In this document: one piece after another, positions 12,551 to 64,000 of the stretch | Layout of the letters: each line of letters starts with the position of its first letter | Numbering within the stretch: the first letter of the stretch is position 1 | Sequence record: OQ743992 | Length of the DNA: 64,000 bases | Reading direction: 5' to 3' (one strand) | DNA from: Escherichia phage vB_EfeM_pEP20 | Position numbers and translations under genes: made by a program | The notes under the pieces: model-generated | What the model was told of the DNA's origin: nothing | Seen by the model: the letters and a program-made list of their open reading frames with translations, nothing else | The model's database searches: none

Positions 12551-12572
12551 CCTTGTCAAGTACATTGTCAAC
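12551..12572. promoter_or_regulatory. conserved 22-mer CCTTGTCAAGTACATTGTCAAC (first copy) in divergent intergenic region upstream of DNA polymerase
   Basis: Tandem TTGTCAA half-sites 12 bp apart; TATAAT at 12581-12586. Confidence 0.45.
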
Positions 12573-12631
12573 TTGCTTTTTATAATTTTTTGCAGTAATG
12601 TATGAGGTTAATGATTTTAGAGGGAGTAAAA

Positions 12632-14815
12632 ATGGAAAACGTAGATTTTAAAAACTTACATTTAGTTGGTGATACAGAAACTGATGGTTTACTCCTTGAG
12701 TTCACTAAAGTACACGTAATGGCTTTCGCAGACTATAAATCTGACGATGAAGAGCCACCTGTATGGGTCTTTACAGATGAGCCTATCCTCGGTCACAAGT
12801 ATACCAAGTACATTAAGGGTGGTTTGCGTGAAGGTGTTGAGTTTGCGTTAAAGGCAAAACGGCTTTGCATCCATAATGGTCTGGGTTATGACTGGTGGGT
12901 TTTCAATCACATTGCACCTGATTTATGGAACTTTGATAATCCAAAGTGTAAGCCGTGGAGTAATTTCTTTCAGGATTCTCTTATCCAGTCTCGTGTTCAG
13001 TGGATGGATAGACCAACTCCAAAAGGCTATAAAGGTGCTCATGGCTTGGCAGCGTGGGGTGCTCGTGTTGGTGTTCGTAAACCAGAGATTGAACATTGGG
13101 GTGTGTGGAATGCAGAAATCTTCACTCGTGTTGTAGAAGATATCCGTATTAACGCCAAAACTAAACGTGCACTGGATAATGAATATCTCAAACTTAAGAA
13201 GTGTGGTATAGACACTTATGAAACCTATATGAGAGCTAAAGAAACATCTTTCTGGATGAGTCAACAAGCTATCAATGGTTGGAAAGCTGATAAAGAGCTT
13301 ATGGAGTTCCATGTAAAGGAACTTGACAAGTTGACTAATGAGCTTGCTTCAGAAGTTGAACCACATCTTCCTCCAACTATTAAGACCAAAGGTAAAGTCA
13401 CTGGAGAAGAGTTTGCAAAAGCTTGGAATGAATATGTTGAAACATTCGGTCATGCAGATGGACTGAAGAGAATTACAAAGTACCCTAAGACGAAGTATCG
13501 CCAACAGGTACGTAACGGTGAGATGCAGACATACGAAATCAAGCCATTTGGGAAGCCAACTACAAAGATTTTTAACATTGAAAAGCGGAATTGCTATACA
13601 CCAACCAACTCCGTAACTGGTGAAGAGTACAAGGAAGGTTTTGTAGCAATGAAGGATGCTCGTGCAATTTGCAATGAGTTGAATGCAAAGATTGGTAAGA
13701 AGTGCAAAGACTGGAAGCCAGTAAAAACAGTTAAAACTGTGAAGTACTATAACAGCCATGTTGTTAACCACTTTGAACTTGAGTCAAGTCGCTACACAGG
13801 TTTGATTGATGCACCATATACACCAATTGAGTTCGAAGTTTCTCGTATGACTCAGGTAGCAGTTGTTAAAGACTACTTGAAATCAGTTGGTTGGATTCCA
13901 GATGACTGGAACTACAAGAAAGACTCAGATGGTCGTCCTGTTAAGGTTTGTCGCTTCAAAGACAACAAAAAGATGATTACAAAACATCCTAAGTGGGATG
14001 AGATGGTGGAACGGTGTGGTTTGAGTTATGTTGAACACGAAGGTGTCCAGTACATTGAACATAACTGGTCTGTTAAGAAGTACACAGATTTGCTTGAGCC
14101 TTGCTTAATCCGTACTTCACCAAAACTTACTGAATCATCTTATGACACGATTGAAGGTGAGCTTGGACAGAAGATTGCGAAATACTATACTTTGATGCAC
14201 CGACGTAGAACTATTGAGAACTCAAAAGATGATGAAAAAGGTTGGTTGAACCAGATTCGTCCTGATGGTCGCCTTAGTGCTGGTGCAATGGTGTTTGGTA
14301 CTTCAACTGGACGTATGACACAATATGGTATTGTAAACGTGCCGTCTGGTGCTGCTGTCTATGGAGCACCTATGAGGGAGGTCTGGACTTGTGAAGAAGG
14401 TACTAATATTGTTTCAGCCGACATGAATAGCGCCCAACTTGTGCTACTGTGTAACTTTATGGGCGATAAAGATTTCACTAAAGCGGTGACAGAGGGTAAA
14501 GAAGAGGTTGAATTTGTCAAACAAGAGGATGGTAGATACTATTGCAAACATTTTGACCAGTATCTAAACCCAGCTATTGACAAGTATTTACATTATGATT
14601 CTGAAAATGACTTATACGTGGTGTACTCAGGGACTGATGCACACACTTTGAATAGTATCTACTTCAGTCTTAATAAAGAGGAAGACATCTTGACATGTCG
14701 AGCTACTCAGGATACAAGTCTTCTTCAAGAAATTAGTAAAGGTCGTAAGAAAGCCAAAAATGGCATCTATGCGTCAGTGGCGCATGTAAAACGTTGTGAA
14801 TTGCTGGAAGCCTAA
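12632..14815 (+). CDS. DNA polymerase (family A), N-terminal segment: 3'-5' exonuclease domain and polymerase domain up to the O-helix
   Basis: ATG at 12632 preceded by AGGGAG. Exo motifs (LVGDTETDGL, HNGLGYDWW). Ends in RKKAKNGIYA, the first half of the PolA O-helix; the reading frame then runs into a stop. Confidence 0.8.
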   Translation: MENVDFKNLHLVGDTETDGLLLEFTKVHVMAFADYKSDDEEPPVWVFTDEPILGHKYTKYIKGGLREGVEFALKAKRLCIHNGLGYDWWVFNHIAPDLWNFDNPKCKPWSNFFQDSLIQSRVQWMDRPTPKGYKGAHGLAAWGARVGVRKPEIEHWGVWNAEIFTRVVEDIRINAKTKRALDNEYLKLKKCGIDTYETYMRAKETSFWMSQQAINGWKADKELMEFHVKELDKLTNELASEVEPHLPPTIKTKGKVTGEEFAKAWNEYVETFGHADGLKRITKYPKTKYRQQVRNGEMQTYEIKPFGKPTTKIFNIEKRNCYTPTNSVTGEEYKEGFVAMKDARAICNELNAKIGKKCKDWKPVKTVKTVKYYNSHVVNHFELESSRYTGLIDAPYTPIEFEVSRMTQVAVVKDYLKSVGWIPDDWNYKKDSDGRPVKVCRFKDNKKMITKHPKWDEMVERCGLSYVEHEGVQYIEHNWSVKKYTDLLEPCLIRTSPKLTESSYDTIEGELGQKIAKYYTLMHRRRTIENSKDDEKGWLNQIRPDGRLSAGAMVFGTSTGRMTQYGIVNVPSGAAVYGAPMREVWTCEEGTNIVSADMNSAQLVLLCNFMGDKDFTKAVTEGKEEVEFVKQEDGRYYCKHFDQYLNPAIDKYLHYDSENDLYVVYSGTDAHTLNSIYFSLNKEEDILTCRATQDTSLLQEISKGRKKAKNGIYASVAHVKRCELLEA

Positions 14816-19781: not shown

Positions 19782-20222
19782 ATGAATACAAAAGCATTAG
19801 CAGCAAAGTTTAGTTACGGTGACACTGTATCACATTCTGAGATGGACACCTTCTTAGGTATTGTGAAGCCAACTTATCAAGGCGACATTGTTAAGTACGA
19901 AGATGAAATGAAGGCTTATGCACTTACACGTCTAAACCGACTTGAGAAGTTTATTGAGAAGCTTCTTAAAGAAGAGAAGATTTATCTGGTTGCTTCAATG
20001 GGTGTTGGTTATCGTGTGGTTGAACCTAAACATCAAGCAACTATTGCAAAACGTAAAATGTCTGGTAAGATTGGTCGAGCTTTAAAGCAAGCCACTCAAG
20101 CTATTGAGAATGTGAACACTATGGAACTTAGCCATCAAGAACGCTCACGACTGATTGAACAGCAAAACCACTTAGCTGCTATGAAAGCTAACATTAACAA
20201 GCAACGTAGAAAACCTTTCTAA
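19782..20222 (+). CDS. hypothetical protein (146 aa)
   Basis: Track ORF 3 nt after the upstream stop. Confidence 0.5.
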   Translation: MNTKALAAKFSYGDTVSHSEMDTFLGIVKPTYQGDIVKYEDEMKAYALTRLNRLEKFIEKLLKEEKIYLVASMGVGYRVVEPKHQATIAKRKMSGKIGRALKQATQAIENVNTMELSHQERSRLIEQQNHLAAMKANINKQRRKPF

Positions 20223-20230
20223 GTTGACTA

Positions 20231-20257
20231 GGTAGCCTCTTCGGAGGCTCCTTTTTA
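20231..20257 (+). terminator. rho-independent terminator
   Basis: Hairpin AGCCTC-TTCG-GAGGCT followed by CTTTTT. Confidence 0.6.
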
Positions 20258-20259
20258 AA

Positions 20260-20520
20260 AGGTCTTTAAACAGGGTCTTTTAATAAGGTGCGGTGCTGTC
20301 CTGTTCTGTAGTGTCTGGTAAGACCTAGTAATGTTCGGTCAGGTATGGGTAGTTAGTCTCAGCTACATTAAAATGAGACTTACATCACTTAAGAGTCTTT
20401 TAAGAGGGTTTTTAAGTGAGGTGTGGCACGGTAATGTTAGGTAGGGTCAGGTCAGGTCAGGTGAGGTAAGGTAAGGTAATGTATGGAAGGATGGCAGTAG
20501 CCTTATAAAAAATCTGCCAA
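20260..20520. repeat. GGT-periodic repeat block R2 (second copy of the R1 module family)
   Basis: Same headers and tails as R1 in swapped order, with GGTCAGGTCAGGTCAGGTGAGGTAAGGTAAGGTAATG. Confidence 0.6.
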
Positions 20521-27187: not shown

Positions 27188-28363
27188 TTAAGCTGTTCTC
27201 TGCCATACATATACGACAAAAGATGGCTGCTCAACACTGAAAGCTTGACCACCACCCACAGAACCAGATGTCCCTGAGTGTGTATGTTCAGAGTTAGAGA
27301 CAGTAACAGTACCCGTATGACTGTGTGAACCAATATTAACAGTGTGGCTATGAGCACCAATTGCAACAGTATGGCTATGAGCACCAGATGATGCAGTTGT
27401 GCCTGAGAAGCTATGGGTGTGAGCACCTGCTAAATCAGTATAAATATTATTATCAATCCCAGCATAAGCAGATGCAGTAATAGCATTTGACCCACTTCTA
27501 TCATTACCCCTCAGTGGTACTCTATGGTTATGGTTACCATCATTACTTGTCGTGCCGCTAAACGTATGAGTGTGAGCACCAGCACTATTAGTCGTTTTTG
27601 TACCGTAATCAAAAGTTGATGTACTTTTTGAACCATAATCAAAACTAGAGATAGATACGCTTGCAGAGTGTGTGTGACCACCACCTGTTAGATAGATAGA
27701 GTGAGTATGTGCTGGTAAATTATTATTTGTTAATGCTACAGTCTGAGAACCAAACGTTGAACCAACAGGTCTAGAATCTGTATCATAACCAACTAGTGCT
27801 CTACCTTTAGAAACTAACTCCCAAGTACCTCCACAAAGCAAGTAAGTGGATGGGTTAGCAGAGTTAACAGATAGATGAATAGTCCCTACTGGATATGATG
27901 CTTGAATAGCTTTGTATAAATTATTCACTGCTCTCGCGGTAGCGTACTTATCAGCATCTTCGTTGTACAGGTTAGATGTTGTCCAGTTCTGAACATTACT
28001 TAAACCGACCTGTGCTTTAGTTGTATTGTGTGGGTTACTTTTGTCGTCAATATGCTGCTGAATTAAGTTATTCACTTCATCTGACGACATAATTTGTAGA
28101 TTAGCTCTTGCCTCAGCAACATTTACAATGTCTGACAAGTTATTAGCTGCAACTAATTGAAGAGAGTTAATAACATTATCAAGACCTACTTGTGATTTAG
28201 TTACACCATGAGGGTTATTCCTCAAAGATGCGTGAGGTGATAACAACTGTTCAAGCGTACATCTTTTATCCTCAACACCTTGCTTAAGATGGAAGATATC
28301 ACTCAAATCAATTGGTAAGGCCGCTTGTGGCAAGGCACTAATTTGAATTTCACCTACTGCCAT
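27188..28363 (-). CDS. tail fiber protein (paralogous His-box C-terminal domain)
   Basis: 391 aa; dense HTHS/HSHT boxes toward the C-terminus and the same terminal ...AFSV...RTA as the larger fiber. Confidence 0.7.
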   Translation of the reverse strand: MAVGEIQISALPQAALPIDLSDIFHLKQGVEDKRCTLEQLLSPHASLRNNPHGVTKSQVGLDNVINSLQLVAANNLSDIVNVAEARANLQIMSSDEVNNLIQQHIDDKSNPHNTTKAQVGLSNVQNWTTSNLYNEDADKYATARAVNNLYKAIQASYPVGTIHLSVNSANPSTYLLCGGTWELVSKGRALVGYDTDSRPVGSTFGSQTVALTNNNLPAHTHSIYLTGGGHTHSASVSISSFDYGSKSTSTFDYGTKTTNSAGAHTHTFSGTTSNDGNHNHRVPLRGNDRSGSNAITASAYAGIDNNIYTDLAGAHTHSFSGTTASSGAHSHTVAIGAHSHTVNIGSHSHTGTVTVSNSEHTHSGTSGSVGGGQAFSVEQPSFVVYVWQRTA

Positions 28364-44052: not shown

Positions 44053-44552
44053 TAATTAAACCTTACTTTTTGTTTAAGGACTGTTGAATGGTTACCAGAT
44101 TCATCTACCACATTTACAATCATATCATATACTTTACCTTTGACAAGTACTTTGTAATCATTTTGTGAAAAAATGTATTCAAGTCTGTTTGTTTCTTTAT
44201 TAACTGTCATTGGAGATTGAAATGCAGTGTCGAGGGTAATGAAAGCGGCTTCAATGCTATTAACATTGATACGTTTATTCTCGCAGTTATATAACTTTAC
44301 ACCCAAAAGGCATGAACTGTCAAATGGAATTTTAACAATTTCACTACAATTTCCTGAAATAAACGGTTTACCACTCATTGGTGCATCAAGTAACCTACAA
44401 ATAGTGAAAACGTCAGAGATTCCACCATCACTAACATAACCTGAAAGGCTGACCCTTGAGCCAGCCTCTACAGATAACTTATCAGTAATGATAAGGACAC
44501 CCCTATACGAATGCACTCGTGTAGCATTTGAAATAGAGATAACTTCAGCCAT
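44052..44552 (-). CDS. hypothetical protein (166 aa)
   Basis: Track ORF in head module. Confidence 0.45.
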   Translation of the reverse strand: MAEVISISNATRVHSYRGVLIITDKLSVEAGSRVSLSGYVSDGGISDVFTICRLLDAPMSGKPFISGNCSEIVKIPFDSSCLLGVKLYNCENKRINVNSIEAAFITLDTAFQSPMTVNKETNRLEYIFSQNDYKVLVKGKVYDMIVNVVDESGNHSTVLKQKVRFN

Positions 44553-46027
44553 TATTTATTTGCCTTATTTGCTGTGCTTGGGTCTTTCGCTGAAGGTGTC
44601 TTTGCAGTACCTTCTCCAGCGGTCTTATAACCATCTCCTGAACGGCTTTGGCTATTTGGAGAAAGCTTTTCAGATACTGGCTGAGACTCATCAGCAGGAG
44701 GAAGACCAATATGCTCTCTAAGTTTGTTAGATAGCTCTTTGTCAACTTCCAAAGCACCTACTGCAACAGTCTTCTGAATATAAGAACCAATTGCTTCAAG
44801 GTCTGGAGTTTCGATATCATCATATGTGATTTGTACATGTTCTTCATCATCCCACATATTAAGAGCATAAGTCTGTGCAACTAAATCACGGTTAATTACG
44901 TTCTTAATTTGCTTCAGCAGAATATCTACTGACATGGCTAATAGGCTTGTCTTAGAATCTGCAAGAGAGAATGAACCATATTTTGACTGACCCATAGCAA
45001 GAACATCTGACATGAATGCCATCATAATCTGCTTGGAATATCTATCAATAATAGAACCTGTATCATATGCTTTAGCACCCTGTCTAGAAACTAATGAGAA
45101 CTCAAAGATATCCTCTTTAGTATCTGGGTCGATATATCTAGGCCAGATTAAACCTGCTCTGTCATTAGCAATCATATCATTAACAACAGTTTTGCAGTAT
45201 TGTACGAAAGCTTTCTTTTCAGGTTCTGCATTTTCATCCAGATAATCTGGAGGTAAACCAATCTTTGGCATACCCACTAAGTCTCTTGAAACACCAACAG
45301 CTTCATACTCTTCAATCTGTACCTTATACTTCCACGGTACATAAGCGTTAAGCAATGGTGAACGACCTTCTGGGTTACCATACTCATCGTCATACTTAAA
45401 CAGCATGAATTTAGCTCGTGGAAGTTTTCTTGTTAGTGGTCTTTCTCCAAGATTAATTGCTCCAGCAATATGTGAAACATTTCTCAGATTTTGTCTGACA
45501 CCAGTAACTTTTCTAAAGTCTTCGTCAAAATACCACTTATCAAGTGTTGACTGGTTTCTGATTGGTAATTTAGCCCACCCAATTAGACCATCATCAAATT
45601 TTGACTGGTACTTTCCTTTTTTACCCTGACGTTTCTTATAAACCTTTTCGTTAACACAGAACCCATAAGTGCAGAATGACATTACAGAGTTAATAAAATC
45701 TGCCCAATCATGCTCCATGTCATCCATTAAAGAATTAAAGAAGTCTGCTCTTTCAAGCATTTTAGGGTCTTGCTCTTTTCCCTTTGGAGGTACGAATCTC
45801 CAGTTGACTTTTCTGACAAACATCTTAATAATATTTACAGATGCTGCTACAGCAGGGTCACGCATCATTAATTGGAAAGTTTTAATACTTTCGGGGAACC
45901 TTAGTGCCTGACGAGGTTCTTCATAGATTCTACCATTCTTAACCTTCAGACCCAAAGAACCTACTTCACCCATTCTAAATGGTGGTAAGCTTTCTTGTGT
46001 TTCTGTAATTTCTGCCATTCTTCTCAC
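44552..46027 (-). CDS. portal protein (putative)
   Basis: 491 aa immediately downstream of large terminase. Confidence 0.65.
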   Translation of the reverse strand: MRRMAEITETQESLPPFRMGEVGSLGLKVKNGRIYEEPRQALRFPESIKTFQLMMRDPAVAASVNIIKMFVRKVNWRFVPPKGKEQDPKMLERADFFNSLMDDMEHDWADFINSVMSFCTYGFCVNEKVYKKRQGKKGKYQSKFDDGLIGWAKLPIRNQSTLDKWYFDEDFRKVTGVRQNLRNVSHIAGAINLGERPLTRKLPRAKFMLFKYDDEYGNPEGRSPLLNAYVPWKYKVQIEEYEAVGVSRDLVGMPKIGLPPDYLDENAEPEKKAFVQYCKTVVNDMIANDRAGLIWPRYIDPDTKEDIFEFSLVSRQGAKAYDTGSIIDRYSKQIMMAFMSDVLAMGQSKYGSFSLADSKTSLLAMSVDILLKQIKNVINRDLVAQTYALNMWDDEEHVQITYDDIETPDLEAIGSYIQKTVAVGALEVDKELSNKLREHIGLPPADESQPVSEKLSPNSQSRSGDGYKTAGEGTAKTPSAKDPSTANKANK

Positions 46028-46034
46028 CTAGCTA

Positions 46035-47651
46035 TCAACGTCTAAGCCCCTCATATGGGTTTCCTCTCACTAAGTCTGTGTGAGCACCCATTGATGGTGG
46101 CTTGAATAATTTAACTTCATTAAGACTGTTGAAAGCATCACTGGTAGCATCCACTTGGTCATCTTTAGTTTTACCATCACCACAAAAACCTTCAAGTTCT
46201 TGGAAATAAGCTTCGTTCCAACTACCTCTCAAGACTTTTACAAGTCCAGCTTCAGAAGCAGCAGAAAACCCCGCAAAGCGGGTAACTTTATCTTTATTTG
46301 TTGGTTTAGCTCTTGCGCGATAACCTTTCTCGGCAAGTTTCCTGATGAGGGATGTTGCATAGGATTTACCAGCAGCGCCTGGGTCTTGAGGGATAAAAAT
46401 ACCAGTTCGCTTACCGTCACTTTCAGCAGTCAAATTAATTTGTGTTTCGACTCCAGAGGGTCTATCTCTAAATCTTACTACATCAATGATATAATAGCAA
46501 CCGTCTTTTTTAGATTTACCCATCTTAACACCCGCTGTCCAGTCTGGGTTAGGGTTAATTTCAGATGGTAAAGTCGCTGCTAAGTCCCATGCTCTGACAT
46601 CAAATACGTCTTCTGGGAGTGAATCAACAATCTCACACCACTGTCTTTGCCAATAGTTTGAACCTTCTGCACGAGCCTTCCAGTTACCGAAACGAAGTCT
46701 TGCAACGTTTACAGGTGTGTTGTTTTCCAACTTACCACGATATTTAGGTTCTAAGAAGTCAAGAATTGGGTTATCATCAATCGTACCAGAGATGAAGGTG
46801 TATGTTTGAGGAATCTCAAGAGGGAACATTTCAAGAATCTTGTCTCTCTCCCAATCAGAAACCATCACACCATCATTCATAACATACCAACGAATACGAC
46901 CGCACTTCTCAGGGTCTGGGTAACCTTCTTCATCTAAGAAAGGCTCTACCCAATCATAAATGAAGTGGTCTCTATCTGGGTTCATAGAAATCTTCATGTA
47001 TGAGTCACTTTCAGCACCAGAACGTAGACGAGTCTGTAGGTATGAAATCTGTGAAGCAGAGAAGTGTGTACCTTCGTCAAAGTAGATAGCTGAGTATTCA
47101 ATACCCTGATGACCTTCAGCGTGCTTTTCAAGTTCTAGGTAGGTAAACTTGATAGTTGCCCCAGAAGGGAATGTGATAGTCATCTTCTGCTCATGAGGAA
47201 CCCCACCAAACTTACCAAATAGTTTCTTTGCAGCAGGCCATAAACCACCTTGTAACTGTGTTGTATTTTGACGGAAATATACAGCATTATAGTTAGGGTC
47301 TTCAATAAACCTTAAAGAGTCCATTAATAATGCAGCAGTTTTACCAGCACCAGCAGCACCACCATAGAGAACCAAGTCAGCATTAGTATTTAAAAAGACC
47401 TCTTGAGAACCCGGCTGAGGGGCTACATAGTTCTTATCAGTCATCAATTTGAAGATAAGTCTAACTTGGTCTGGTGTGTATCTTAATAAAGTCAGAATTT
47501 GAGTTGGAAGGAATTTAGAGGGGTCTTTACCGTATGATTTGATAATTTCTTTTACTTCATCAGGAAGCCCCAACTCTCCAGCTAGGACTTTCCTAACATC
47601 TTCCACTCGCTTCTGCTTAATAGCATTTAAGTCCATTAAGCACCTCCGCAA
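46035..47651 (-). CDS. terminase large subunit
   Basis: 538 aa; Walker A LYGGAAGAGKT, Walker B-like AIYFDEGTH, C-terminal nuclease-like acidic motifs. Confidence 0.85.
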   Translation of the reverse strand: MRRCLMDLNAIKQKRVEDVRKVLAGELGLPDEVKEIIKSYGKDPSKFLPTQILTLLRYTPDQVRLIFKLMTDKNYVAPQPGSQEVFLNTNADLVLYGGAAGAGKTAALLMDSLRFIEDPNYNAVYFRQNTTQLQGGLWPAAKKLFGKFGGVPHEQKMTITFPSGATIKFTYLELEKHAEGHQGIEYSAIYFDEGTHFSASQISYLQTRLRSGAESDSYMKISMNPDRDHFIYDWVEPFLDEEGYPDPEKCGRIRWYVMNDGVMVSDWERDKILEMFPLEIPQTYTFISGTIDDNPILDFLEPKYRGKLENNTPVNVARLRFGNWKARAEGSNYWQRQWCEIVDSLPEDVFDVRAWDLAATLPSEINPNPDWTAGVKMGKSKKDGCYYIIDVVRFRDRPSGVETQINLTAESDGKRTGIFIPQDPGAAGKSYATSLIRKLAEKGYRARAKPTNKDKVTRFAGFSAASEAGLVKVLRGSWNEAYFQELEGFCGDGKTKDDQVDATSDAFNSLNEVKLFKPPSMGAHTDLVRGNPYEGLRR

Positions 47652-47657
47652 ATAGAA

Positions 47658-47858
47658 TTATTCAGAGTCTGTAGCAGTCTCTTCTTTCTTAACTTCGAAC
47701 TTTGCATCAACAGCGTCAAGAAGTGCATCCATAGAGGCTTCTTTGATATCAATACCTGTTGCTACAGATAATCTGTCTGCAATTGCCATGATAGTGTTCT
47801 GCATAAATTCTAGCTTTTTGTTAGCTTCATAAAGTTCTTTATAAACGGTCTCGCTCAT
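47658..47858 (-). CDS. hypothetical small protein upstream of terminase (66 aa)
   Basis: RBS GGAGAAAA then ATG; too small to call terminase small subunit. Confidence 0.45.
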   Translation of the reverse strand: MSETVYKELYEANKKLEFMQNTIMAIADRLSVATGIDIKEASMDALLDAVDAKFEVKKEETATDSE

Positions 47859-47894
47859 TATGTTTTCTCCAAATAATTAACCATGTTTCTCCTT

Positions 47895-47918
47895 AAAAAA
47901 GACGGTACAGAGACCGTC
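47895..47918 (-). terminator. rho-independent terminator (minus strand) between tRNA array and structural block
   Basis: Hairpin GACGGT-ACAGAG-ACCGTC, followed on the minus strand by TTTTTT. Confidence 0.5.
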
Positions 47919-48080
47919 AAGGAGAAACCACAATGTACGTCAGAGACATACTGTATAAGTCTTCTTATAAAGTATAACTCTGTAAAAAAGCCCTGTCTAA
48001 AAATACTCTTCGGTAGCGAAAGGAAGAATACTTATAGCAGGGCATTATTATTATTTTAATTGAGAGAGAGTAAAATAACT

Positions 48081-48156
48081 TGGAGAATCCGAAGGGACTC
48101 GAACCCTTATAAACCTGTTTTGCAGACAGGCACATAGCCATTTCTGTCACGGATTC
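48081..48156 (-). tRNA. tRNA-Cys (anticodon GCA)
   Basis: Hand-folded: perfect 7-bp acceptor, anticodon loop CTGCAAA, T-arm AAGGG-TTCGAGT-CCCTT, discriminator U, CCA encoded. Confidence 0.75.
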
Positions 48157-48160
48157 AAAT

Positions 48161-48253
48161 TGGAGGAAGATACCAGACTTGAACTGATACACCGATTTCT
48201 CAGCTACTGGCAGTTTAGCAAACTGCTCCCTTACCTTTTAGGGTTAATCTTCC
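48161..48253 (-). tRNA. tRNA-Ser (anticodon GCT), class II
   Basis: Perfect acceptor GGAAGAT/ATCTTCC, anticodon loop TTGCTAA, about 20-nt variable arm, T-loop TTCAAGT. Confidence 0.75.
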
Positions 48254-48254
48254 A

Positions 48255-48989
48255 TTATTTCTGTAATGCGTTCTTCATTTCTGGTGTTGCAATAGTGTCA
48301 ATTACACCAGTTTTACAAGCATCATCAAACCAGTCTGGTAAGATACCTGCTAAGAACCCATTGATATTCGTTTTAAGGTACTCTGCAATAAGGGCAGCTT
48401 CTTCTTCAATCATCTGCACAACTTCATCTGCATAAGCTGTAATCTTTGAGATACCTTCATTAATCTTGCTAACAGCTTGGTTAGCTAAATCAGAAATAGT
48501 ATCAAGACCTTTATCAATAGCATCTTGTAAGTCACTTAATACATCGTTAACACCGTCTAGTGCACTGTTAATTGTGTCAATAGCTTTTTGACCATATTCT
48601 GTAGCAACACCCATAATACCACTAAATGGTGTACAACCAACTTGCTCTCCTGCTGCACCCATAACATTGGAATATCCTTTTGCTACCTGCATACGTGATG
48701 AAAACTCATCAATGGACTTTTGACCGTAATCTGTCAGTGTCTTAGTGGTTGATGTAGTGCTTGTCAGACTCGTTGTAAAGCTGTTAAGCAGAACTGTTGT
48801 AAGTCCAGCGGCAACAAGTTTATCCTTTATTGTAGGGTCTGTTACAGAGCTAATAGAGCTTACAAGTGATGTAGAGGCAGCTACGGTTCCACCGAGAACT
48901 GCTGCACCAGTAATAAGGGGATTAGAAAACCCTCTACCGGTTTTTAAGAGACCAAAAATCTCCTTACCTTGTTCTGTCATCTCTTTCAT
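48255..48989 (-). CDS. hypothetical protein with hydrophobic segment and coiled-coil region, embedded in the tRNA array
   Basis: Start taken at ATG 48989 (MKEMTEQ...) behind AAAGGTG; the longer track start would overlap a tRNA-like gene. Confidence 0.45.
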   Translation of the reverse strand: MKEMTEQGKEIFGLLKTGRGFSNPLITGAAVLGGTVAASTSLVSSISSVTDPTIKDKLVAAGLTTVLLNSFTTSLTSTTSTTKTLTDYGQKSIDEFSSRMQVAKGYSNVMGAAGEQVGCTPFSGIMGVATEYGQKAIDTINSALDGVNDVLSDLQDAIDKGLDTISDLANQAVSKINEGISKITAYADEVVQMIEEEAALIAEYLKTNINGFLAGILPDWFDDACKTGVIDTIATPEMKNALQK

Positions 48990-49005
48990 TAAGCACCTTT
49001 GAAAT

Positions 49006-49080
49006 TGGTAGTTCAGTGGGATTTGAACCCTCTTCTCATGTTTTTCAGACACGCGCTTTAACCATATAAGCTACTTGGAC
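49006..49080 (-). tRNA. tRNA-like gene with Phe-type anticodon arm (GAA); acceptor stem does not pair, possible pseudo-tRNA
   Basis: Good D-arm (GCTT/AAGC) and anticodon arm (loop CTGAAAA), T-loop TTCAAAT, but 5' GTCCAAG cannot pair with 3' TGAACTA. Confidence 0.35.
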
Positions 49081-49087
49081 TATAAAT

Positions 49088-49163
49088 TGGGGTGACCTAC
49101 GGGATTTGAACCCGTATAGACCATGTTCACAGCATGGGTCATTACCATTTATGATAAGGCCAC
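49088..49163 (-). tRNA. tRNA-His (anticodon GTG)
   Basis: Acceptor GTGGCCT/AGGTCAC, D-stem TCAT/ATGA, anticodon loop CTGTGAA, T-arm ACGGG-TTCAAAT-CCCGT. Confidence 0.7.
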
Positions 49164-49194
49164 ATTTAAGGACTCTCGTAAGAATCCTTAGAAG

Positions 49195-49270
49195 TGGCAG
49201 CGGCATAAGGATTTGAACCTTAATAAGACAGCTTCAGAGACTGCTGCATTGCCAGTTATGCTATACCGCT
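49195..49270 (-). tRNA. tRNA-Gln (anticodon CTG)
   Basis: Acceptor AGCGGTA/TGCCGCT, D-stem GCAT/ATGC, anticodon loop CTCTGAA. Confidence 0.6.
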
Positions 49271-49275
49271 AAATT

Positions 49276-49354
49276 TGGTACTCCATATCGGATTCGAACC
49301 GATACATAACACAGATTTTAAGTCTGGCCTCTCTGCCAATTGGAGTAATGGAGC
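49276..49354 (-). tRNA. tRNA with Leu-type anticodon TAA but short variable arm (atypical)
   Basis: Acceptor GCTCCAT/ATGGAGT, perfect T-arm ATCGG-TTCGAAT-CCGAT, Leu-like D-loop AATTGGCAGAG, anticodon loop CTTAAAA, discriminator A, variable region only about 7 nt. Confidence 0.5.
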
Positions 49355-49356
49355 AT

Positions 49357-49432
49357 TGGCGGGGGATGCTGGAATTGAACCAGCTTCTTCGATTTCAAAG
49401 ACCGAGGTTTTAACCTTGTAAACTAATCCCCT
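49357..49432 (-). tRNA. tRNA-Gln (anticodon TTG)
   Basis: D-stem GTTT/AAAC, anticodon arm TCGGT-CTTTGAA-ATCGA, T-arm GCTGG-TTCAATT-CCAGC; first acceptor pair mismatched. Confidence 0.6.
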
Positions 49433-49440
49433 TTAAATCT

Positions 49441-49998
49441 TTACTTTCTTAGTGGATGAATAAAGAATGCCAACATAACTCTTTCCCTTGAGAATGCTCT
49501 TTCTTCTGGGACAACACTTTTTAGTTTCCATCCAATATAAATTCTCCAGTAAAACTGTTTACCAAAGACTTTAATTGATGGGATAAAAGCGAATAATCCC
49601 CAAGCATTACTGTTCCACATTAGGAGATAACCAGTCTGATTATCTTCAGGGTCAGAACTTACGTTGATATTACCTTTCCACTTAGTAACATCTTTTACAT
49701 CTCTTCCTAATACATGGTAAGAGAAGTTATAAGCTTTGTTTCTCCAGAGCCATCCAACTCTCTGCATATAAACACCAAGCTTACCAATCTTTCTAATCTT
49801 AGCCCATCTCTCAACGTGGCCTTTGTCACCATCAATCGGGTTGTCATAGGTCTCCATCCATCTGAATCCAAAAGGTAGATGCCCTTTCTTCTCGCTGTAG
49901 AATGGAACCACAAATGGTGCTAAGATTACTGCTAAGATTGCTGCAAATGGTTCTAGCAAAGCTAGGAAAATCCATGAAGCATATTTTAAATATCTCAT
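49441..49998 (-). CDS. hypothetical membrane protein (185 aa) inside tRNA array
   Basis: N-terminal hydrophobic helices (IFLALLEPFAAILAVILAPFVVPF). Confidence 0.45.
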   Translation of the reverse strand: MRYLKYASWIFLALLEPFAAILAVILAPFVVPFYSEKKGHLPFGFRWMETYDNPIDGDKGHVERWAKIRKIGKLGVYMQRVGWLWRNKAYNFSYHVLGRDVKDVTKWKGNINVSSDPEDNQTGYLLMWNSNAWGLFAFIPSIKVFGKQFYWRIYIGWKLKSVVPEERAFSRERVMLAFFIHPLRK

Positions 49999-50237
49999 CG
50001 TCTAATCCTTGTAAGGAGATAAGTGTTATTATTTGTTTCTGAGTTTTCTGGTAACATTGTCTCAAAATTGACACTTTTAAGTTGTCTTCCACCAAAGTAA
50101 TGACCAATAAATTTTTCTACTCTTATTGGGTCGCATTCCCAGCCGACTTTCAAGAAAATGTGGGTATCTATAGTGGGAACCCTTACAAACTCAACACTAT
50201 TGGAATTTTCATGTTCAACGACTATTAATGTTTGCAT
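49995..50237 (-). CDS. hypothetical protein (80 aa) inside tRNA array
   Basis: Track ORF with overlap to downstream gene. Confidence 0.4.
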   Translation of the reverse strand: MQTLIVVEHENSNSVEFVRVPTIDTHIFLKVGWECDPIRVEKFIGHYFGGRQLKSVNFETMLPENSETNNNTYLLTRIRR

Positions 50238-55379: not shown

Positions 55380-55508
55380 TGGTATGCCTCTTATAAGACC
55401 TCTTAAAAGGCTTTTAAGATAAAAGATAGATATCCAGAAAGATATCTGTTTAAATAGCCTTTTTAGAGGAACCTTTTAAGTTATCTTCTAAGTATTTATA
55501 AGCCTACA

Positions 55509-55530
55509 CCTTGTCAAGTACTTTGTCAAC
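55509..55530. promoter_or_regulatory. conserved 22-mer CCTTGTCAAGTACTTTGTCAAC (second copy) in divergent intergenic region
   Basis: Matches 12551-12572 at 21 of 22 positions; reverse complement carries two TTGACA boxes. Confidence 0.45.
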
Positions 55531-55620
55531 AACTTTTTTAACTTGCAATAGTTCTTGACTTGTTGTATGGATTACTGTACCATCTTACTTAAAGCTGTAG
55601 GTCTGCCTTGTTCTACAAAG

Positions 55621-55790
55621 GAGACTTAATGAGAAAATCAAATAAACCGAAGAAAGGTAAGAATACCAATCACTGCAAGGAATCAAAAAGGGTAGAGTTA
55701 ATCTACTATTCATCCTCTGAAATTGGTCTGTACCTGTTCTTTCAAAATTACAGAAGACAAGAGGATTATCTATGTGTAGTTCCCAATTAG
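55621..55790 (+). CDS. hypothetical small basic protein
   Basis: ATG at 55621 after AAGGAGA; shorter than the track ORF. Confidence 0.3.
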
Positions 55791-56636: not shown

Positions 56637-57008
56637 ATGAAAGCTAAGAGTGCAAAAGACTTTTATTGCTTCCTACAATCCTATATCAATTCCGTGCAAA
56701 ATGGTGAAAGGTACAACCTTAATGATGTTATCCCAACACCTTTGACATGGAGACTCAGTAAATGGCCTGAAGAAGATATTACACCAACAAGCGAACAACG
56801 TACCTACAAACCTGAAATCAATATTCCAGATTCTGAGAATCTATTATATCCAATGTTCCATATTGTTGGTCTTGGAAGATTCCTTATGGATATCCAGTAT
56901 GTAATTGGTAAAGGTTATAAGGTTAAAGGCGTTGTTGTTGGTGATGTATCTCCGCATCACAAAGGTTATTTTAGACTAAACGCACATTTAGAGGCTAAAA
57001 AGAAATGA
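56637..57008 (+). CDS. hypothetical protein (123 aa), paralog of the N-terminal domain of the next gene
   Basis: Shares layout and motifs with residues 1-120 of the 57005-58138 product. Confidence 0.5.
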   Translation: MKAKSAKDFYCFLQSYINSVQNGERYNLNDVIPTPLTWRLSKWPEEDITPTSEQRTYKPEINIPDSENLLYPMFHIVGLGRFLMDIQYVIGKGYKVKGVVVGDVSPHHKGYFRLNAHLEAKKK

Positions 57009-58138
57009 TTAAAGCAAAGACTTACCCAGACTTCAAAGAGTTTGTGAAGGGCTTCATTGCAAATGTAAAGGCTGGTAAGAGATATGATTTTAGAACATAT
57101 CAAGAGGCTATTTTACCACTCACCTATAGTTCGTATTGGCCTGAAGCTGATATTGCAGAAGTTAAGAAGTTTGACTACAACCCAGACTATAAAGTCCCAT
57201 TTAGTGATGAGTTGCTTTACAGTGTTGGTGCTCAAATGAGAACTTCTGACTTCTTCATGGACTTACAATATGCAATTATCAATGGTAAAGACGTTGATAC
57301 AGTTTATTGTGAATGGCTGGCAAGAGTTAAACCATTCTCAATGTTGAATGCTAAGTTGAAGGATGCTATCAAGCCACCAGCAATTACTCAGCAACCAACA
57401 GGTCAAACAGTCAATGAGGGTGGCACACTTACTCTAAGCATTCTAGCAACTAACGCCACTGGATATCAGTGGAAAAAGGATGGTGAGGACATCCCTAGTG
57501 CCAATTCTGCAACTTATACAAAACAGTCAGTAGCACCTTCTGACGCTGGTGCATACACTTGTGTTGTATCTGGAGAGGGTGGAACAAGTGTTACCTCAGA
57601 TGCAGCAACAGTGACTGTGAACGCACTACCTGTGATTACCAAGCAACCTTCTAACCAGACTATTAATGAAGGTGGAAACATCAACTTAGCAGTTACTGCA
57701 ACTGGTGCAACTGGCTACCAATGGAAGAAAGATGGTTCTGACATTCCTTCAGCTACAAATGCTACCTATAGCAAGTCTGGTGCTCTGCCAGTAGATGCAG
57801 GTTCATACACTTGCGTTGTAACAGGTGCAGGTGGCTCTGTAACGTCTAACGCTGCAACAGTTACTGTGAATGCACTTCCAGTAATCACTCAACAGCCAAC
57901 CAATCAAGAAATCAATGAAGGTGAGACCTTAACACTGAATGTTGTGGCAACAGGTGCAACGGGTTACCAGTGGAAGAAAGGTGAGGAAGATATCCTCGAT
58001 GCAACCGCTGCAACTTACACTAAAGAAGGTGCAACCGCTGCTGATTCGGGAAGCTACACCTGTGTAGTTACTGGTGCAGGTGGCTCTGTCACATCTAACG
58101 CAGCAACAGTTACAGTTAGTCCAGTAGGAGGGGCATAA
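57005..58138 (+). CDS. protein with three tandem immunoglobulin-like (I-set-like) repeats
   Basis: Three copies of about 85 aa each containing ATGYQWKKDG ... D(A/S)G(A/S)YTCVV(T/S)GAGG ... ATVTV. Confidence 0.6.
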   Translation: MIKAKTYPDFKEFVKGFIANVKAGKRYDFRTYQEAILPLTYSSYWPEADIAEVKKFDYNPDYKVPFSDELLYSVGAQMRTSDFFMDLQYAIINGKDVDTVYCEWLARVKPFSMLNAKLKDAIKPPAITQQPTGQTVNEGGTLTLSILATNATGYQWKKDGEDIPSANSATYTKQSVAPSDAGAYTCVVSGEGGTSVTSDAATVTVNALPVITKQPSNQTINEGGNINLAVTATGATGYQWKKDGSDIPSATNATYSKSGALPVDAGSYTCVVTGAGGSVTSNAATVTVNALPVITQQPTNQEINEGETLTLNVVATGATGYQWKKGEEDILDATAATYTKEGATAADSGSYTCVVTGAGGSVTSNAATVTVSPVGGA

Positions 58139-58602
58139 TGCAACTCTCAAGAAAAGGTTTAGATGCTATTAAGTTCTTCGAGGGTCTGGAGTTAGAGGCT
58201 TACGAAGATTCTGCCGGAATCCCAACAATCGGGTATGGGACAATCCGTATTGACGGAAAACCTGTTAAGATGGGTATGAAGATTACCGCTGAACAAGCTG
58301 AACAGTATCTTCTCGCAGATGTTGAAAAGTTCGTTGCAGCAGTGAACAAAGCCATCAAGGTTCCAACTTCTCAGAACGAGTTTGATGCACTTGTAAGTGA
58401 AACATACAACATTGGCATTACAGCTATGCAGGACTCTACATTTATCAAGCGCCACAATGATGGTAATAAGGTAGGTTGTGCAGAAGCTATGCAATGGTGG
58501 AACAAGGTTACAGTCAAAGGTAAGAAGGTCACTTCAAACGGCCTGAAAAACAGACGTAGAATGGAAGCTGACATTTATCTTGACAGCGTATATCCAAAGT
58601 AA
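58138..58602 (+). CDS. endolysin (GH24 lysozyme family)
   Basis: 154 aa; FEGLELEAYEDSAGIPTIGYGT matches the T4/lambda-type lysozyme catalytic E-D-T region; RBS GGAGGGG. Confidence 0.8.
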   Translation: MQLSRKGLDAIKFFEGLELEAYEDSAGIPTIGYGTIRIDGKPVKMGMKITAEQAEQYLLADVEKFVAAVNKAIKVPTSQNEFDALVSETYNIGITAMQDSTFIKRHNDGNKVGCAEAMQWWNKVTVKGKKVTSNGLKNRRRMEADIYLDSVYPK

Positions 58603-62818: not shown

Positions 62819-63376
62819 ATGATAGATATGGAAAAAGATAACTTAAAAGAAGTTGAAGGCAACTACCTAGTCCTTGATTGGAGTGATGTGCAAGAAGCTC
62901 TCTCCAAAGAGAGTCTTAGCATACTAGAGCAACTTATCTTCTCAGTAAGGCATATCAGAGAAGTTAAAAATGGTAAAGAGCCATTAGAAGGAATCTTTGT
63001 AGAGAAGTCTTATCCGTTCTATGAAGACACTTTGCAGAAAGTTAAGATGTACTTTAAACAGAAGAATCGTAAAGCGGTCACTATGGTATCTCTTGGTGGA
63101 CAGAGCATGTCTGTGATGGAAGATATCAACCCTAAGAGACCGAGTAAAGGTGTTTGTATAAAAATCACAGGTCATGAAGAGTATATCTCAGTGGATGACT
63201 TTAGTTTATTCTGCAATGGTTCTTGTGTCTTTAATGGTTTTCACTATGATATCCGAGTGTACCCAATCAAGGGAGATGATATCATGATGCAGGTATTCGA
63301 TAATAACAATGGATTTACTCATTTTTATCAGACAACCAAGTCATCATTGAAAACAGTTCTGGAAACACTGATTTAA
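62819..63376 (+). CDS. hypothetical protein (about 185 aa)
   Basis: ATG at 62819 chosen; the track start at 62783 overlaps the upstream gene. Confidence 0.45.
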   Translation: MIDMEKDNLKEVEGNYLVLDWSDVQEALSKESLSILEQLIFSVRHIREVKNGKEPLEGIFVEKSYPFYEDTLQKVKMYFKQKNRKAVTMVSLGGQSMSVMEDINPKRPSKGVCIKITGHEEYISVDDFSLFCNGSCVFNGFHYDIRVYPIKGDDIMMQVFDNNNGFTHFYQTTKSSLKTVLETLI

Positions 63377-63385
63377 AATATCTTA

Positions 63386-63412
63386 AGAGCCTCCTTAATT
63401 GGGGGCTTTTTA
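63386..63412 (+). terminator. rho-independent terminator candidate
   Basis: Hairpin GAGCCTCC-TTAATT-GGGGGCT followed by TTTTTAATTTTT. Confidence 0.5.
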
Positions 63413-63479
63413 ATTTTTATAAAATTTTATCGGTTGTCCCAACCTCTGGGTCACCATCATATGTGAATAAAATATCTAT

Positions 63480-63760
63480 CCTTCTTAACAGCCTTCTTAA
63501 TCTTACTCTCTATATAGTTATATAGTACTATATAGTATCTTAGTAACTATCTAGTGGTCTTAATAGCCCCTCTGTATAACCCTTCTAAATAGCCTTCTAA
63601 CAAGCCCTCTAATAAGCCTTCTAAACAACCTATACAATCACCTTAACCACCTCTCTATAGCCTCTTAGAAGCCCCTATACACCTCTTAATCTCTATGTCA
63701 GCTATGTTACCCTCTATAGGTGTTCACTAGGTGTTACTAAGCCTCTATATAGACTGTTTT
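63480..63760. repeat. cluster of short direct repeats (iteron-like) in non-coding right edge
   Basis: CCTTCTTAA x2, TATATAGT x3, (A)GCC(T/C)TCTAA(N)A x4, CTCTATAG x3, followed by an AT-rich stretch. Confidence 0.55.
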
Positions 63761-64000
63761 AACAAACTTAACAGGAATATCTTTACAGACCTTATCTCAC
63801 AAGGTCTAACACGGTACTAACAAGGTATCTTATAAGCCTGTTTATACCTGTATTTTTAAAAGGCTGTATAGGTAATTATTCAGAATTTTAAAATTTTTAT
63901 AAAATAGGACTATCAAGTCATTTTTTAGGGTCTTTGAAGGAACTGAAAAATATCTGTAGAGTTGATTCGGTAGAATCTACCTCATGATGTATATCTGCTT

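What the first reader, a model, noticed from the sequence alone, without database searches (positions are those of the whole stretch)
63480..63760. Iteron-rich non-coding region at the right edge of the window
Several families of short direct repeats (CCTTCTTAA, TATATAGT x3, GCCTTCTAA-like x4, CTCTATAG x3) are packed into about 300 bp after a terminator and followed by an AT-rich stretch. This looks like a replication origin or another protein-binding array. The window ends soon after, so the full extent is unknown.
Basis: seen in the sequence. Interest (0 to 1): 0.5.

Follow-up and report, generated by a model that had tools for sequence, protein, structure and literature searches.

The report
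Repeat array beside phage genome end
The repeat-packed stretch is real, but it is the conserved gene-free DNA lying just inside one physical end (the terminal repeat) of a Felix O1-type phage genome, so it is more likely a signal for cutting and packaging the genome than a replication origin.

Summary
Window 63480-63760 is the densest short-repeat spot in the 64 kb (8-mer repeat score 23, against 3.9±2.7 in shuffles). It carries 11 copies of a CYTCT(A/T/G)(A/T) box, all on one strand, and it follows a terminator at 63385-63410.

The window is a Felixounavirus. The array lies in a ~1.65 kb gene-free gap between convergent gene blocks. In relatives this gap contains the 580-618 bp direct terminal repeat (DTR). 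The window's last base is the last unique base before that repeat, so the array sits 240-520 bp from a physical genome end.

Across three genera the gap is 75-85% identical. Flanking genes reach only 60-65%, and their four-fold degenerate sites 51-53%. An Erwinia phage that cannot be aligned at the DNA level uses the same box types (TTCTAA, CTTAACA) around its own DTR at 11-13 bp spacing.

Evidence for an origin is weak. There is no initiator-like neighbour and no DnaA-box excess, the site is a terminus-like skew maximum, and the replication genes flank a different, divergent gap at 12.4 kb. No RNA family or conserved ORF was found.

Best reading: a cis-acting sub-terminal array of the kind seen beside the T7 terminal repeat. 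Its function is inferred, not shown, and it is undescribed for this subfamily. Interest is modest.

The parts
62828..63376 (+). Last protein-coding gene before the genome end (182 aa, function unknown)
   Evidence: ORF listed. It matches PHROG 4330 (unknown function) at E=1e-107 and has no Pfam hit. Orthologues hold the same position in Felixounavirus, Suspvirus and Mooglevirus.
63385..63410 (+). Intrinsic-terminator-like hairpin ending the rightward gene block
   Evidence: One search finds a 10-pair stem followed by a T-run. The GGGGCTTTTT part is invariant across genera.
63412..63425 (+). First copy of the 14-mer AATTTTTATAAAAT
   Evidence: There are only two exact copies in the 64 kb, both in this gap. 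It is invariant across three genera.
63449..63477 (+). Conserved block GGGTCACCAT..TGTGAATAAAATATC
   Evidence: Nearly invariant in the 10- and 33-sequence alignments. It contains one DnaA-box-like 9-mer that is not kept in Suspvirus or Mooglevirus.
63480..63500 (+). Two CCTTCTTAA boxes 12 bp apart
   Evidence: At the equivalent position after the terminator, the Erwinia phage has four (T)CTTAAC(A) boxes at 12-13 bp spacing.
63508..63537 (.). Three palindromic (C)TATATAG(T) units
   Evidence: All three CTATATAG copies in the window lie in this gap. The block is almost invariant in 33 relatives.
63579..63626 (+). Four tandem 12-bp units AGCCYTCTAAnn
   Evidence: One search gives period 12 and 3.8 copies. 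Copy number varies between relatives, and this is the least conserved part of the region. It is annotated as repeat_region in phage fjerdesal.
63649..63757 (+). Further same-strand boxes: CTCTATAG at 63653 and 63712, CTCTATATAG at 63743, an inverted TTCTAA copy within GCCTCTTAGAAGC (63660-63672), CTCTTAA at 63683, and the nearly invariant block ACTAAGCCTCTATATAGACTGTT (63735-63757)
63758..63955 (+). Segment next to the terminal repeat. It carries TAACA(A/G) boxes at 63760, 63769 and 63818, the largely invariant block 63797-63842, and the AT-rich stretch holding the second AATTTTTATAAAAT copy (63892-63905)
   Evidence: This segment resembles positions 52-213 of the terminal repeat itself (Smith-Waterman z=7.9).
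63956..63985 (+). Variable ~30-bp insert GTAGAGTTGATTCGGTAGAATCTACCTCAT
   Evidence: It is present in only some relatives. Related copies sit at other places and in other orientations inside the same gap, including terminator loops.
63986..64000 (+). Last unique bases (GATGTATATCTGCTT) before the direct terminal repeat, which in relatives begins GGTAGCCCTTAACA
   Evidence: The boundary agrees in Ro111lw (613-bp repeat at both record ends), D4 (581 bp at both ends) and the start of H12. The annotated DTR of UAB_69 is within 2 nt. It is invariant in 33 relatives.

Best explanation
The array is part of the conserved, gene-free sub-terminal region of a Felix O1-type (Ounavirinae) phage genome. These phages package a linear genome with an exact direct terminal repeat (DTR) of about 0.6 kb.

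In replicating concatemers, the last genes of two convergent blocks are separated by about 1.65 kb of silent DNA bounded by terminators. This DNA runs: flank, DTR, flank. The finding is the outer part of the flank on the endolysin side.

I infer that the same-strand boxes, spaced about one helical turn apart (CYTCTWW here, TAACA(A/G) closer to and inside the repeat), are binding sites. The binding protein would be a phage packaging or terminus-recognition protein. These phages have no recognisable small terminase. A DNA-bending helper protein is an alternative.

That protein would position the large terminase to nick at the two invariant repeat edges. The edges resemble each other as inverted copies: TGCTT|GGTAGCCCTTAACA and, on the other strand, TGCTA|GCCCCCTTAACA. 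The repeat could then be duplicated by strand displacement and a unit genome packaged.

Shown: the repeats, their strand bias, the position next to the DTR, the strong conservation, and the recurrence of the box types in a non-alignable relative. Inferred: protein binding, the packaging role, and the nick-and-displace step.
For: Identity and location:
- The window is a Felixounavirus; 248 phage records match at 91-97% identity.
- The region lies in a 1.6-1.7 kb gap between convergent genes in Felixounavirus, Suspvirus and Mooglevirus.
- The DTR edges agree in four independent records. A 608-bp DTR was shown experimentally for UAB_Phi87 by Bal31 digestion and run-off sequencing (PMC4837284). 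PhageTerm reported DTRs for D4 and H12 (PMC11737134).
- The window ends one base before the repeat.

Selection:
- The junction is 75-85% identical between genera. Flanking coding DNA is 60-65% identical and its four-fold degenerate sites 51-53%.

Box structure:
- 11 boxes lie on the + strand and 1 on the - strand.
- In 33 unique relatives the counts are 4-12 on the + strand and 0-2 on the - strand.
- The TAACA(A/G) boxes in the repeat are mostly spaced 11 bp or a near multiple (9, 10, 20, 31).
- Three inverted TGTTAAG copies sit at the far edge of the repeat, so both edges look alike from outside.

Independent recurrence:
- Erwinia phage vEam_S_24 (Kolesnikvirus) has TTCTAA x11 and CTTAACA/TGTTAAG arrays around its ~442-bp DTR.

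Analogy checked in sequence:
- T7 has CCTAAAG boxes at 13-bp spacing at 175-341, just inside its 160-bp repeat.

Other readings weakened:
- No recognised small terminase lies upstream of terL at 46035-47651 (PMC4837284).
- No ORF of 30 aa or more, no Rfam hit and only weak consensus folding on both strands argue against a gene or RNA.
Against: - No binding or packaging experiment exists for this phage group. The function is inferred only from position, conservation and analogy.
- Box columns are not more conserved than the columns between them (0.872 vs 0.878, p=0.47). The 12-bp tandem array is the most variable part. The constraint is therefore spread over a mosaic of blocks rather than focused on the 'iterons'.
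- In the Erwinia phage the large TTCTAA array lies on the other flank of the repeat. Only the box types are conserved, not their arrangement.
- In T7, insertions at most loci near the genome ends were tolerated (bioRxiv 10.1101/2024.10.10.617714). The analogous arrays may therefore be dispensable.
- Related boxes (CTTTTAAG, CTGTTAAG, AGCCTCTT..) also occur upstream of two divergent promoter regions. This hints at a role not specific to packaging.
- The DTR of this particular genome is not in the window; its edges are taken from relatives.
Confidence: 0.5

Rival explanations
1. Replication origin. The repeated boxes would be iterons for an initiator, and the AT-rich stretch at about 63875-63906 would be the unwinding element.
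For: - Direct repeats spaced about one helical turn apart lie next to an AT-rich segment.
- The DNA is strongly conserved and non-coding.
- One DnaA-box-like 9-mer lies at 63462-63470.
- No origin has been mapped in this phage group, so nothing contradicts this directly.
- From general knowledge, not tested here: T7 has secondary origins near its ends.
Against: - The site lies between convergent gene blocks, at a cumulative GC-skew maximum. The skew minima are at about 12 kb and 55-56 kb.
- It is 240-520 bp from a physical end.
- No initiator-like gene is nearby.
- DnaA boxes are not enriched (15 found vs 12.2 expected), and the single perfect one is not conserved in other genera.
- The boxes are 7-12 bp and of mixed types, whereas typical iterons are uniform units of 17-22 bp.
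- The replication genes flank the divergent gap at 12375-12601.
Confidence: 0.15
2. Binding field for a host nucleoid-associated protein or a phage transcription regulator. The same factor would also act at the early divergent promoter regions, and the sites here would shape or silence the genome ends.
For: - Related boxes (AGCCTCTTTTAAG, CCTCTTAAAAGGCTTTTAAG, CTGTTAAG, TCTTCTAAG) lie upstream of the two divergent promoter regions at 12375-12545 and 55380-55500.
- Bins covering those regions are the next-highest for the combined motif count. PWM hits fall at 12377, 55384 and 55396.
- The gap is bracketed by terminators and has no promoter excess.
Against: - The motif sharing is loose. Counts at the promoter regions are small (4-5 per 250 bp, against 13 here).
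- No specific factor can be named from the sequence.
- This reading does not explain the invariant repeat edges or the inverted arrangement at the two edges.
Confidence: 0.15
3. Control of DNA entry or protection of the genome end. Sub-terminal sites would be bound on ejection to pause entry or to shield the end from exonucleases.
For: - The array lies next to a physical end.
- The boxes are strand-asymmetric.
- From general knowledge, not tested here: T5 has a repeat-rich injection stop region in its terminal repeat.
Against: - It is not known which end enters the cell first.
- Nothing in the sequence is specific to this role.
- Both flanks and the repeat itself carry arrays. That fits a role at the concatemer junction better than a role at one end.
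Confidence: 0.08
4. Functionless spacer in which replication slippage creates and removes short repeats.
For: The 12-bp array varies in copy number between close relatives, and it is the least conserved segment.
Against: - The region as a whole is 75-83% identical across genera, where neutral sites are about 52% identical.
- About half of its columns are invariant in 33 relatives.
- The strand bias of the boxes is universal.
- The box types recur in a lineage that cannot be aligned.
Confidence: 0.05

Closest known systems
Short-repeat arrays flanking the T7 terminal repeat (the SRL/SRR arrays of Dunn and Studier; names from my own knowledge)
   Same: - Both are non-coding arrays of 7-8 bp boxes, all on one strand.
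- Both are spaced about one helical turn apart: 13 bp in T7 and 12 bp here.
- Both lie directly inside an exact direct terminal repeat of a non-permuted linear genome.
- In both cases the function is not firmly established.
   Different: - There is no sequence homology (CCTAAAG versus CYTCTWW, TAACAR and CTNTATAG).
- This phage is a myovirus that uses host RNA polymerase.
- The repeat is 580-618 bp rather than 160 bp, and is itself packed with about 25 boxes.
- The flank is a mosaic of several box families plus invariant unique blocks.
- The two flanks carry different, partly inverted motifs.
Terminase recognition sites built from repeated short boxes (P1 pac hexamers, lambda cosB R sites, SPP1 pacL/pacR; from general knowledge)
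   Same: Several short boxes lie on either side of a terminase cut site. Helical phasing suggests cooperative binding or wrapping. The cut-site sequences are invariant.
   Different: - Those systems have identified small terminases and footprints. Here no small terminase is recognisable and no binding data exist.
- The array extends over more than 1.6 kb.
- The product is an exact terminal repeat rather than cohesive or headful ends.
Iteron-type replication origins (lambda ori, plasmid iterons)
   Same: Direct repeats lie next to an AT-rich stretch in conserved non-coding DNA.
   Different: There is no cognate initiator gene nearby. The boxes are shorter and of mixed types. The location is convergent and terminal. 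There is no DnaA-box excess.

Membership tests
Sub-terminal repeat arrays of phages with exact direct terminal repeats (T7-type) | The genome has an exact, non-permuted direct terminal repeat with fixed ends | tested here: met
   Identical 613-bp (Ro111lw) and 581-bp (D4) sequences occur at both record ends. The same edges are seen in H12 and, within 2 nt, in UAB_69. A 608-bp repeat was shown experimentally for UAB_Phi87 (PMC4837284). This was shown in close relatives, not in the window's own genome.
Sub-terminal repeat arrays of phages with exact direct terminal repeats (T7-type) | The array lies in non-coding DNA directly internal to the repeat | tested here: met
   The gene-free stretch 63377-64000 ends at the repeat edge. 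No ORF of 30 aa or more is present. The finding lies 240-520 bp from the edge, and TAACA-type boxes fill the rest.
Sub-terminal repeat arrays of phages with exact direct terminal repeats (T7-type) | Short boxes on one strand, spaced about one helical turn apart | tested here: met
   There are 11 boxes on the + strand and 1 on the - strand. The period is 12 bp. For comparison, T7 shows 13-bp spacing of CCTAAAG at 175-341.
Sub-terminal repeat arrays of phages with exact direct terminal repeats (T7-type) | Sequence or evolutionary relatedness to the T7 arrays | tested here: not met
   The box sequences differ and the phages belong to unrelated families. The resemblance is in architecture only.
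Terminase recognition (pac/cos-type) site | Repeated boxes flank an invariant cleavage site | tested here: met
   The edges GTATATCTGCTT|GGTAGCCC and AAGGGGGC|TAGC are invariant or nearly so, and boxes lie on both sides of each.
Terminase recognition (pac/cos-type) site | Bound by the phage's small terminase or recognition subunit, and required for packaging | not testable with these tools
   No small terminase is recognisable near terL. Footprinting and packaging assays are needed.
Iteron-type replication origin | Several near-identical direct repeats (typically 17-22 bp) that bind an initiator | tested here: inconclusive
   Repeats are present, but they are 7-12 bp, belong to several families, and vary in copy number.
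Iteron-type replication origin | A cognate initiator gene lies adjacent to or overlaps the repeats | tested here: not met
   All ten neighbouring proteins match only unknown-function PHROGs, and none passes a Pfam cut-off.
Iteron-type replication origin | An AT-rich unwinding element lies next to the repeats | tested here: met
   An AT-rich stretch lies at about 63875-63906 and contains the invariant AAAATTTTTATAAAATAG. This is composition only; unwinding was not tested.
Iteron-type replication origin | Origin-like genomic position (skew minimum or divergent replication module), or host DnaA boxes | tested here: not met
   The site is a cumulative-skew maximum between convergent genes, while the minima lie at about 12 kb and 55-56 kb. 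DnaA-like boxes number 15 against 12.2 expected.
Iteron-type replication origin | Replication initiation mapped to the site | not testable with these tools
   No mapping was found in the literature.
Structured non-coding RNA | Match to a known RNA family, or a conserved secondary structure on one strand | tested here: not met
   No Rfam match reaches its gathering score. Consensus folding energies are only -7 to -19 kcal/mol for 150-230 nt and are similar on both strands.

The most novel reading that the evidence does not exclude
The TTCTAA, CTNTATAG and TAACA(A/G) box arrays in and around the terminal repeat may form a subfamily-wide recognition code. The reader of that code would be an as-yet unidentified terminus- or packaging-recognition protein of Felix O1-type phages, which have no recognisable small terminase. 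The two repeat edges, which are inverted copies of each other, would direct symmetric nicks that generate the ~0.6 kb repeat by strand displacement. The same factor might also act at the two early divergent promoter regions, linking early transcription to genome-end recognition.
Probability: 0.3. Interest if true: 0.55.

Novelty: new member of a known kind. Interest (0 to 1): 0.35.

Why it matters
Felix O1-type phages are widely used for Salmonella and E. coli typing, biocontrol and therapy. It is still not known how they recognise and cut their genome ends, and no small terminase or origin has been identified.

This work gives a concrete map of the concatemer junction: the invariant cut sites, the box families, and which parts vary. 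That map provides targets for packaging assays and for protein pull-downs.

It also supports safer genome engineering, since it shows where cargo can and cannot be inserted, and it helps to orient assemblies correctly.

In general terms, it is another example of a known architecture, namely repeat arrays beside a terminal repeat, rather than a new principle.

Tried and rejected
- **Rfam scan of the whole junction:** only sub-threshold hits over the terminator.
- **Consensus RNA folding on both strands:** weak and symmetric, explained by DNA palindromes (a first attempt timed out).
- **Sigma-70 promoter scan:** one hit in the window part, against 3.1 expected. In the full junction there were 11 against 6.3±2.4, several of them caused by the TTAACA boxes mimicking a -35 hexamer.
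- **DnaA boxes:** no excess.
- **Neighbouring proteins for an initiator or DNA-binding domain:** none found.
- **Genes upstream of terL for a small terminase:** none recognised.
- **Large-scale inverted repeat between the two flanks:** not significant (z about 1.2).
- **Whether box columns are more conserved than spacer columns:** they are not (p=0.47).
- **Positional equivalence with the Erwinia phage:** I first read its 11x TTCTAA array as equivalent to the finding. The edge motifs and endolysin synteny show it lies on the opposite flank, so I withdrew that claim.
- **UAB_Phi87 record:** it is not opened at its terminal repeat, so its experimentally determined edges could not be read from the record.
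- **Literature searches:** no description of these repeats, or of an origin, was found for this phage group. The Bas63 essentiality study, in the sections read, reports gene-level scores only and nothing for this gap.

Full report
**1.
- CCTTCTTAA occurs at 63480 and 63492.
- TATATAGT occurs at 63511, 63519 and 63529.
- CCNTCTAA occurs at 63581, 63593, 63605 and 63617.
- CTCTATAG occurs at 63653 and 63712, with CTCTATATAG variants at 63508 and 63743.

Tandem Repeats Finder reports a 12-bp unit in 3.8 copies at 63581-63625. A terminator-like hairpin precedes the region at 63385-63410, and an AT-rich stretch follows it.

The count of repeated 8-mers is 23, against 3.9±2.7 in 1000 dinucleotide-preserving shuffles. 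This is the highest of any 281-bp stretch in the window.

The families share a core, C[CT]TCT[ATG][AT]. It occurs 11 times on the + strand and once on the - strand within 262 bp. The whole 64 kb has 117 copies on the + strand. The + strand here is 26.7% C and 10% G.

**2. Where the region sits.**
The window is a Felixounavirus, a Felix O1-type myovirus. 248 phage records match at mostly 90-97% identity.

In complete relatives the region belongs to a 1.6-1.7 kb gene-free gap between two convergent gene blocks. This holds in fjerdesal and JH2, and in Suspvirus and Mooglevirus.

The records of phages Ro111lw and D4 carry identical sequences of 613 bp and 581 bp at both ends. H12 starts at the same nucleotide. 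UAB_69 carries an annotated DTR whose edges fall within 2 nt of these.

A 608-bp direct terminal repeat was demonstrated by Bal31 digestion and run-off sequencing for the relative UAB_Phi87 (PMC4837284). PhageTerm gave direct terminal repeats for D4 and H12 (PMC11737134). The original Felix O1 paper inferred short terminal repeats (PMC3185647).

In window orientation the repeat begins GGTAGCCCTTAACA. The window ends ...GATGTATATCTGCTT, which is exactly the last unique base. The finding is therefore 240-520 bp inside one physical end of the genome.

**3. Anatomy of the whole junction (from relatives).**
The order is: flank (about 600 bp, the window part), then the repeat (570-618 bp), then a second flank (about 470 bp).

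The repeat holds about 20 of the junction's 25 same-strand TAACA(A/G) boxes, mostly spaced 11 bp or a near multiple (9, 10, 20, 31). TAACAAG occurs 13 times in the junction against 0.2 expected.

At the far edge of the repeat there are three inverted TGTTAAG copies. As a result, both edges look alike when read from outside:
- TGCTT|GGTAGCCCTTAACA
- TGCTA|GCCCCCTTAACA (other strand).

The part of the window flank nearest the repeat (about 63757-63924) resembles positions 52-213 of the repeat (z=7.9). The two flanks are not inverted copies of each other overall (z about 1.2). However, CTCTATA-type boxes on the window side are matched by TATAGAG on the other side.

**4. Conservation.**
Between Felixounavirus and Suspvirus or Mooglevirus, the junction is 75-85% identical in aligned columns. 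The finding itself is 75-83% identical. Five flanking genes are 60-65% identical at the nucleotide level, and only 51-53% at four-fold degenerate sites (n=123-140). The gap is therefore under stronger constraint than the proteins beside it.

In 33 unique relatives, about half of the columns in 63478-63760 are invariant. These include relatives found by scanning viral contigs for the edge sequence.

The most conserved blocks are:
- the TATATAG triple (63508-63536);
- 63735-63757;
- 63797-63842;
- the second AATTTTTATAAAAT copy and its AT-rich surroundings (about 63889-63906);
- the edge (63986-64000).

The 12-bp tandem array is the most variable part and changes copy number.

Box columns are not more conserved than the columns between them (0.872 vs 0.878, p=0.47). 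This is a mosaic cis-element, not a simple iteron array. The strand bias is universal: 4-12 boxes on the + strand against 0-2 on the - strand.

**5. Recurrence in a relative that cannot be aligned.**
Erwinia phage vEam_S_24 (Kolesnikvirus) matches only about 86 bp of the repeat by blastn. Its junction nonetheless has the same design:
- a repeat of about 442 bp, with TAACA boxes in one half and TGTTAAG in the other, at about 11-bp spacing;
- eleven same-strand TTCTAA boxes in one flank;
- CTTAACA, CTGAGAAG and TCTTAAC arrays in the other flank.

Edge motifs (GTATATCT) and endolysin synteny show that the flank equivalent to the finding is the one that opens, after its terminator, with four (T)CTTAAC(A) boxes at 12-13 bp spacing. 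The large TTCTAA array lies on the other side, though it also reads towards the repeat. So the box types are conserved across the subfamily, but their arrangement is not.

**6. What the region is not.**
- It contains no ORF of 30 aa or more, and the small ORFs annotated in relatives disagree with each other.
- No Rfam family matches, and consensus folding is weak and strand-symmetric.
- There is no promoter excess.

For the origin reading:
- The neighbours are all of unknown function.
- DnaA boxes are at chance level, and the one perfect copy is not conserved.
- Cumulative GC skew peaks here, which is terminus-like. Its minima are at about 12 kb and 55-56 kb, although skew in this phage simply follows gene direction.
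- Primase/helicase (8146-10137, - strand) and DNA polymerase (12602-14815, + strand) flank the divergent gap at 12375-12601. The Felix O1 paper places the presumed early divergent promoters between replication genes (PMC3185647).
- No origin has been mapped in this group.

**7. Most likely mechanism.**
The closest architecture is the short-repeat arrays beside the T7 terminal repeat. I checked this in sequence: T7 has CCTAAAG boxes at 13-bp spacing from 175 to 341, just inside its 160-bp repeat.

Terminase recognition sites built from repeated short boxes (P1 pac, lambda cosB, SPP1 pac; general knowledge) work in a comparable way.

I infer that the phased, one-strand boxes bind a packaging or terminus-recognition protein. 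The alternative is a DNA-bending helper protein. That protein would position the large terminase (terL at 46035-47651) at the two invariant, mutually inverted edges. Staggered nicks there, followed by strand displacement, would duplicate the repeat. No small terminase is recognisable (PMC4837284).

This is inference from position, constraint and analogy. In T7, most insertions near the ends were tolerated, except at positions 142 and 162 (bioRxiv 10.1101/2024.10.10.617714). The arrays may therefore tune the process rather than being essential.

**8. A complication.**
Related boxes lie upstream of both divergent promoter regions, at 12375-12545 and 55380-55500. Examples are AGCCTCTTTTAAG, CCTCTTAAAAGGCTTTTAAG, CTGTTAAG and TCTTCTAAG. 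This keeps open a shared DNA-binding factor, from host or phage, that is not specific to packaging.

**9. Verdict.**
The 'protein-binding array' reading is plausible, and the 'origin' reading is unlikely but not excluded.

The feature is a new, uncharacterised example of a known architecture: sub-terminal repeat arrays beside a direct terminal repeat. Some GenBank records mark parts of it as repeat_region, but I found no published description or functional test. Interest is modest (0.35).

Noticed in passing
window 63956-63985; also L001 5899-5912, L002 4987-5000, L007 5049-5062, L008 3423-3436, L009 4058-4071, L011 3989-4002, L017 617-630, L018 1094-1107 and 1186-1199: A ~25-30 bp element with consensus (G)TTGATTCG(G/A)TAGAATCTA(C/T)CTCAT is present or absent between close relatives. 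It sits at different positions and in both orientations, but always inside the terminal gene-free gap, sometimes in the loop of a terminator hairpin. It occurs only once in this window. It looks like a tiny mobile or recombining palindromic insert.
   Followed up: partly
window 63412-63425 and 63892-63905: The 14-mer AATTTTTATAAAAT occurs exactly twice in 64 kb. The two copies bracket the repeat-rich flank 480 bp apart, and both are invariant across three genera. Function unknown.
   Followed up: partly
window 12375-12601 and 55380-55629: The two divergent intergenic regions share a near-identical 25-mer, ACACCTTGTCAAGTAC(A/T)TTGTCAAC (about 12548-12572 and 55507-55531). This is probably an early promoter element. 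Upstream of it are CTTTTAAG, CTGTTAAG and AGCCTCTT boxes that resemble those of the terminal region. The first gap lies between the primase/helicase side and the DNA polymerase gene, and is a more conventional place to look for an origin.
   Followed up: partly
window 64000 (end of window): The window stops exactly at the last unique base before the terminal repeat. The source record was probably opened at the physical terminus and carries the repeat only at its other end.
   Followed up: yes
L001 4977-5567 (the terminal repeat in phage fjerdesal; outside the window): The terminal repeat is itself a dense array: about 20 TAACA(A/G) boxes mostly spaced 11 bp or a near multiple, plus three inverted TGTTAAG copies at the far edge. 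Its two edges are inverted copies of each other.
   Followed up: yes
window 57005-58138: This ORF has three tandem ~90-aa Ig-like repeats (the motif ATGYQWKKDG..D recurs). They cause one of the other repeat-dense signals in the window. The endolysin gene follows at 58138-58602.
   Followed up: no
window ~20200-20450, ~27200-27400, ~52650: These are other stretches with a high repeated-8-mer score in the window-wide scan. They were not examined.
   Followed up: no
window 46035-50237: The large terminase (46035-47651, - strand) and portal (44552-46027, - strand) genes are present. The four ORFs upstream of terL match only unknown-function PHROGs, so no small terminase is recognisable.
   Followed up: partly
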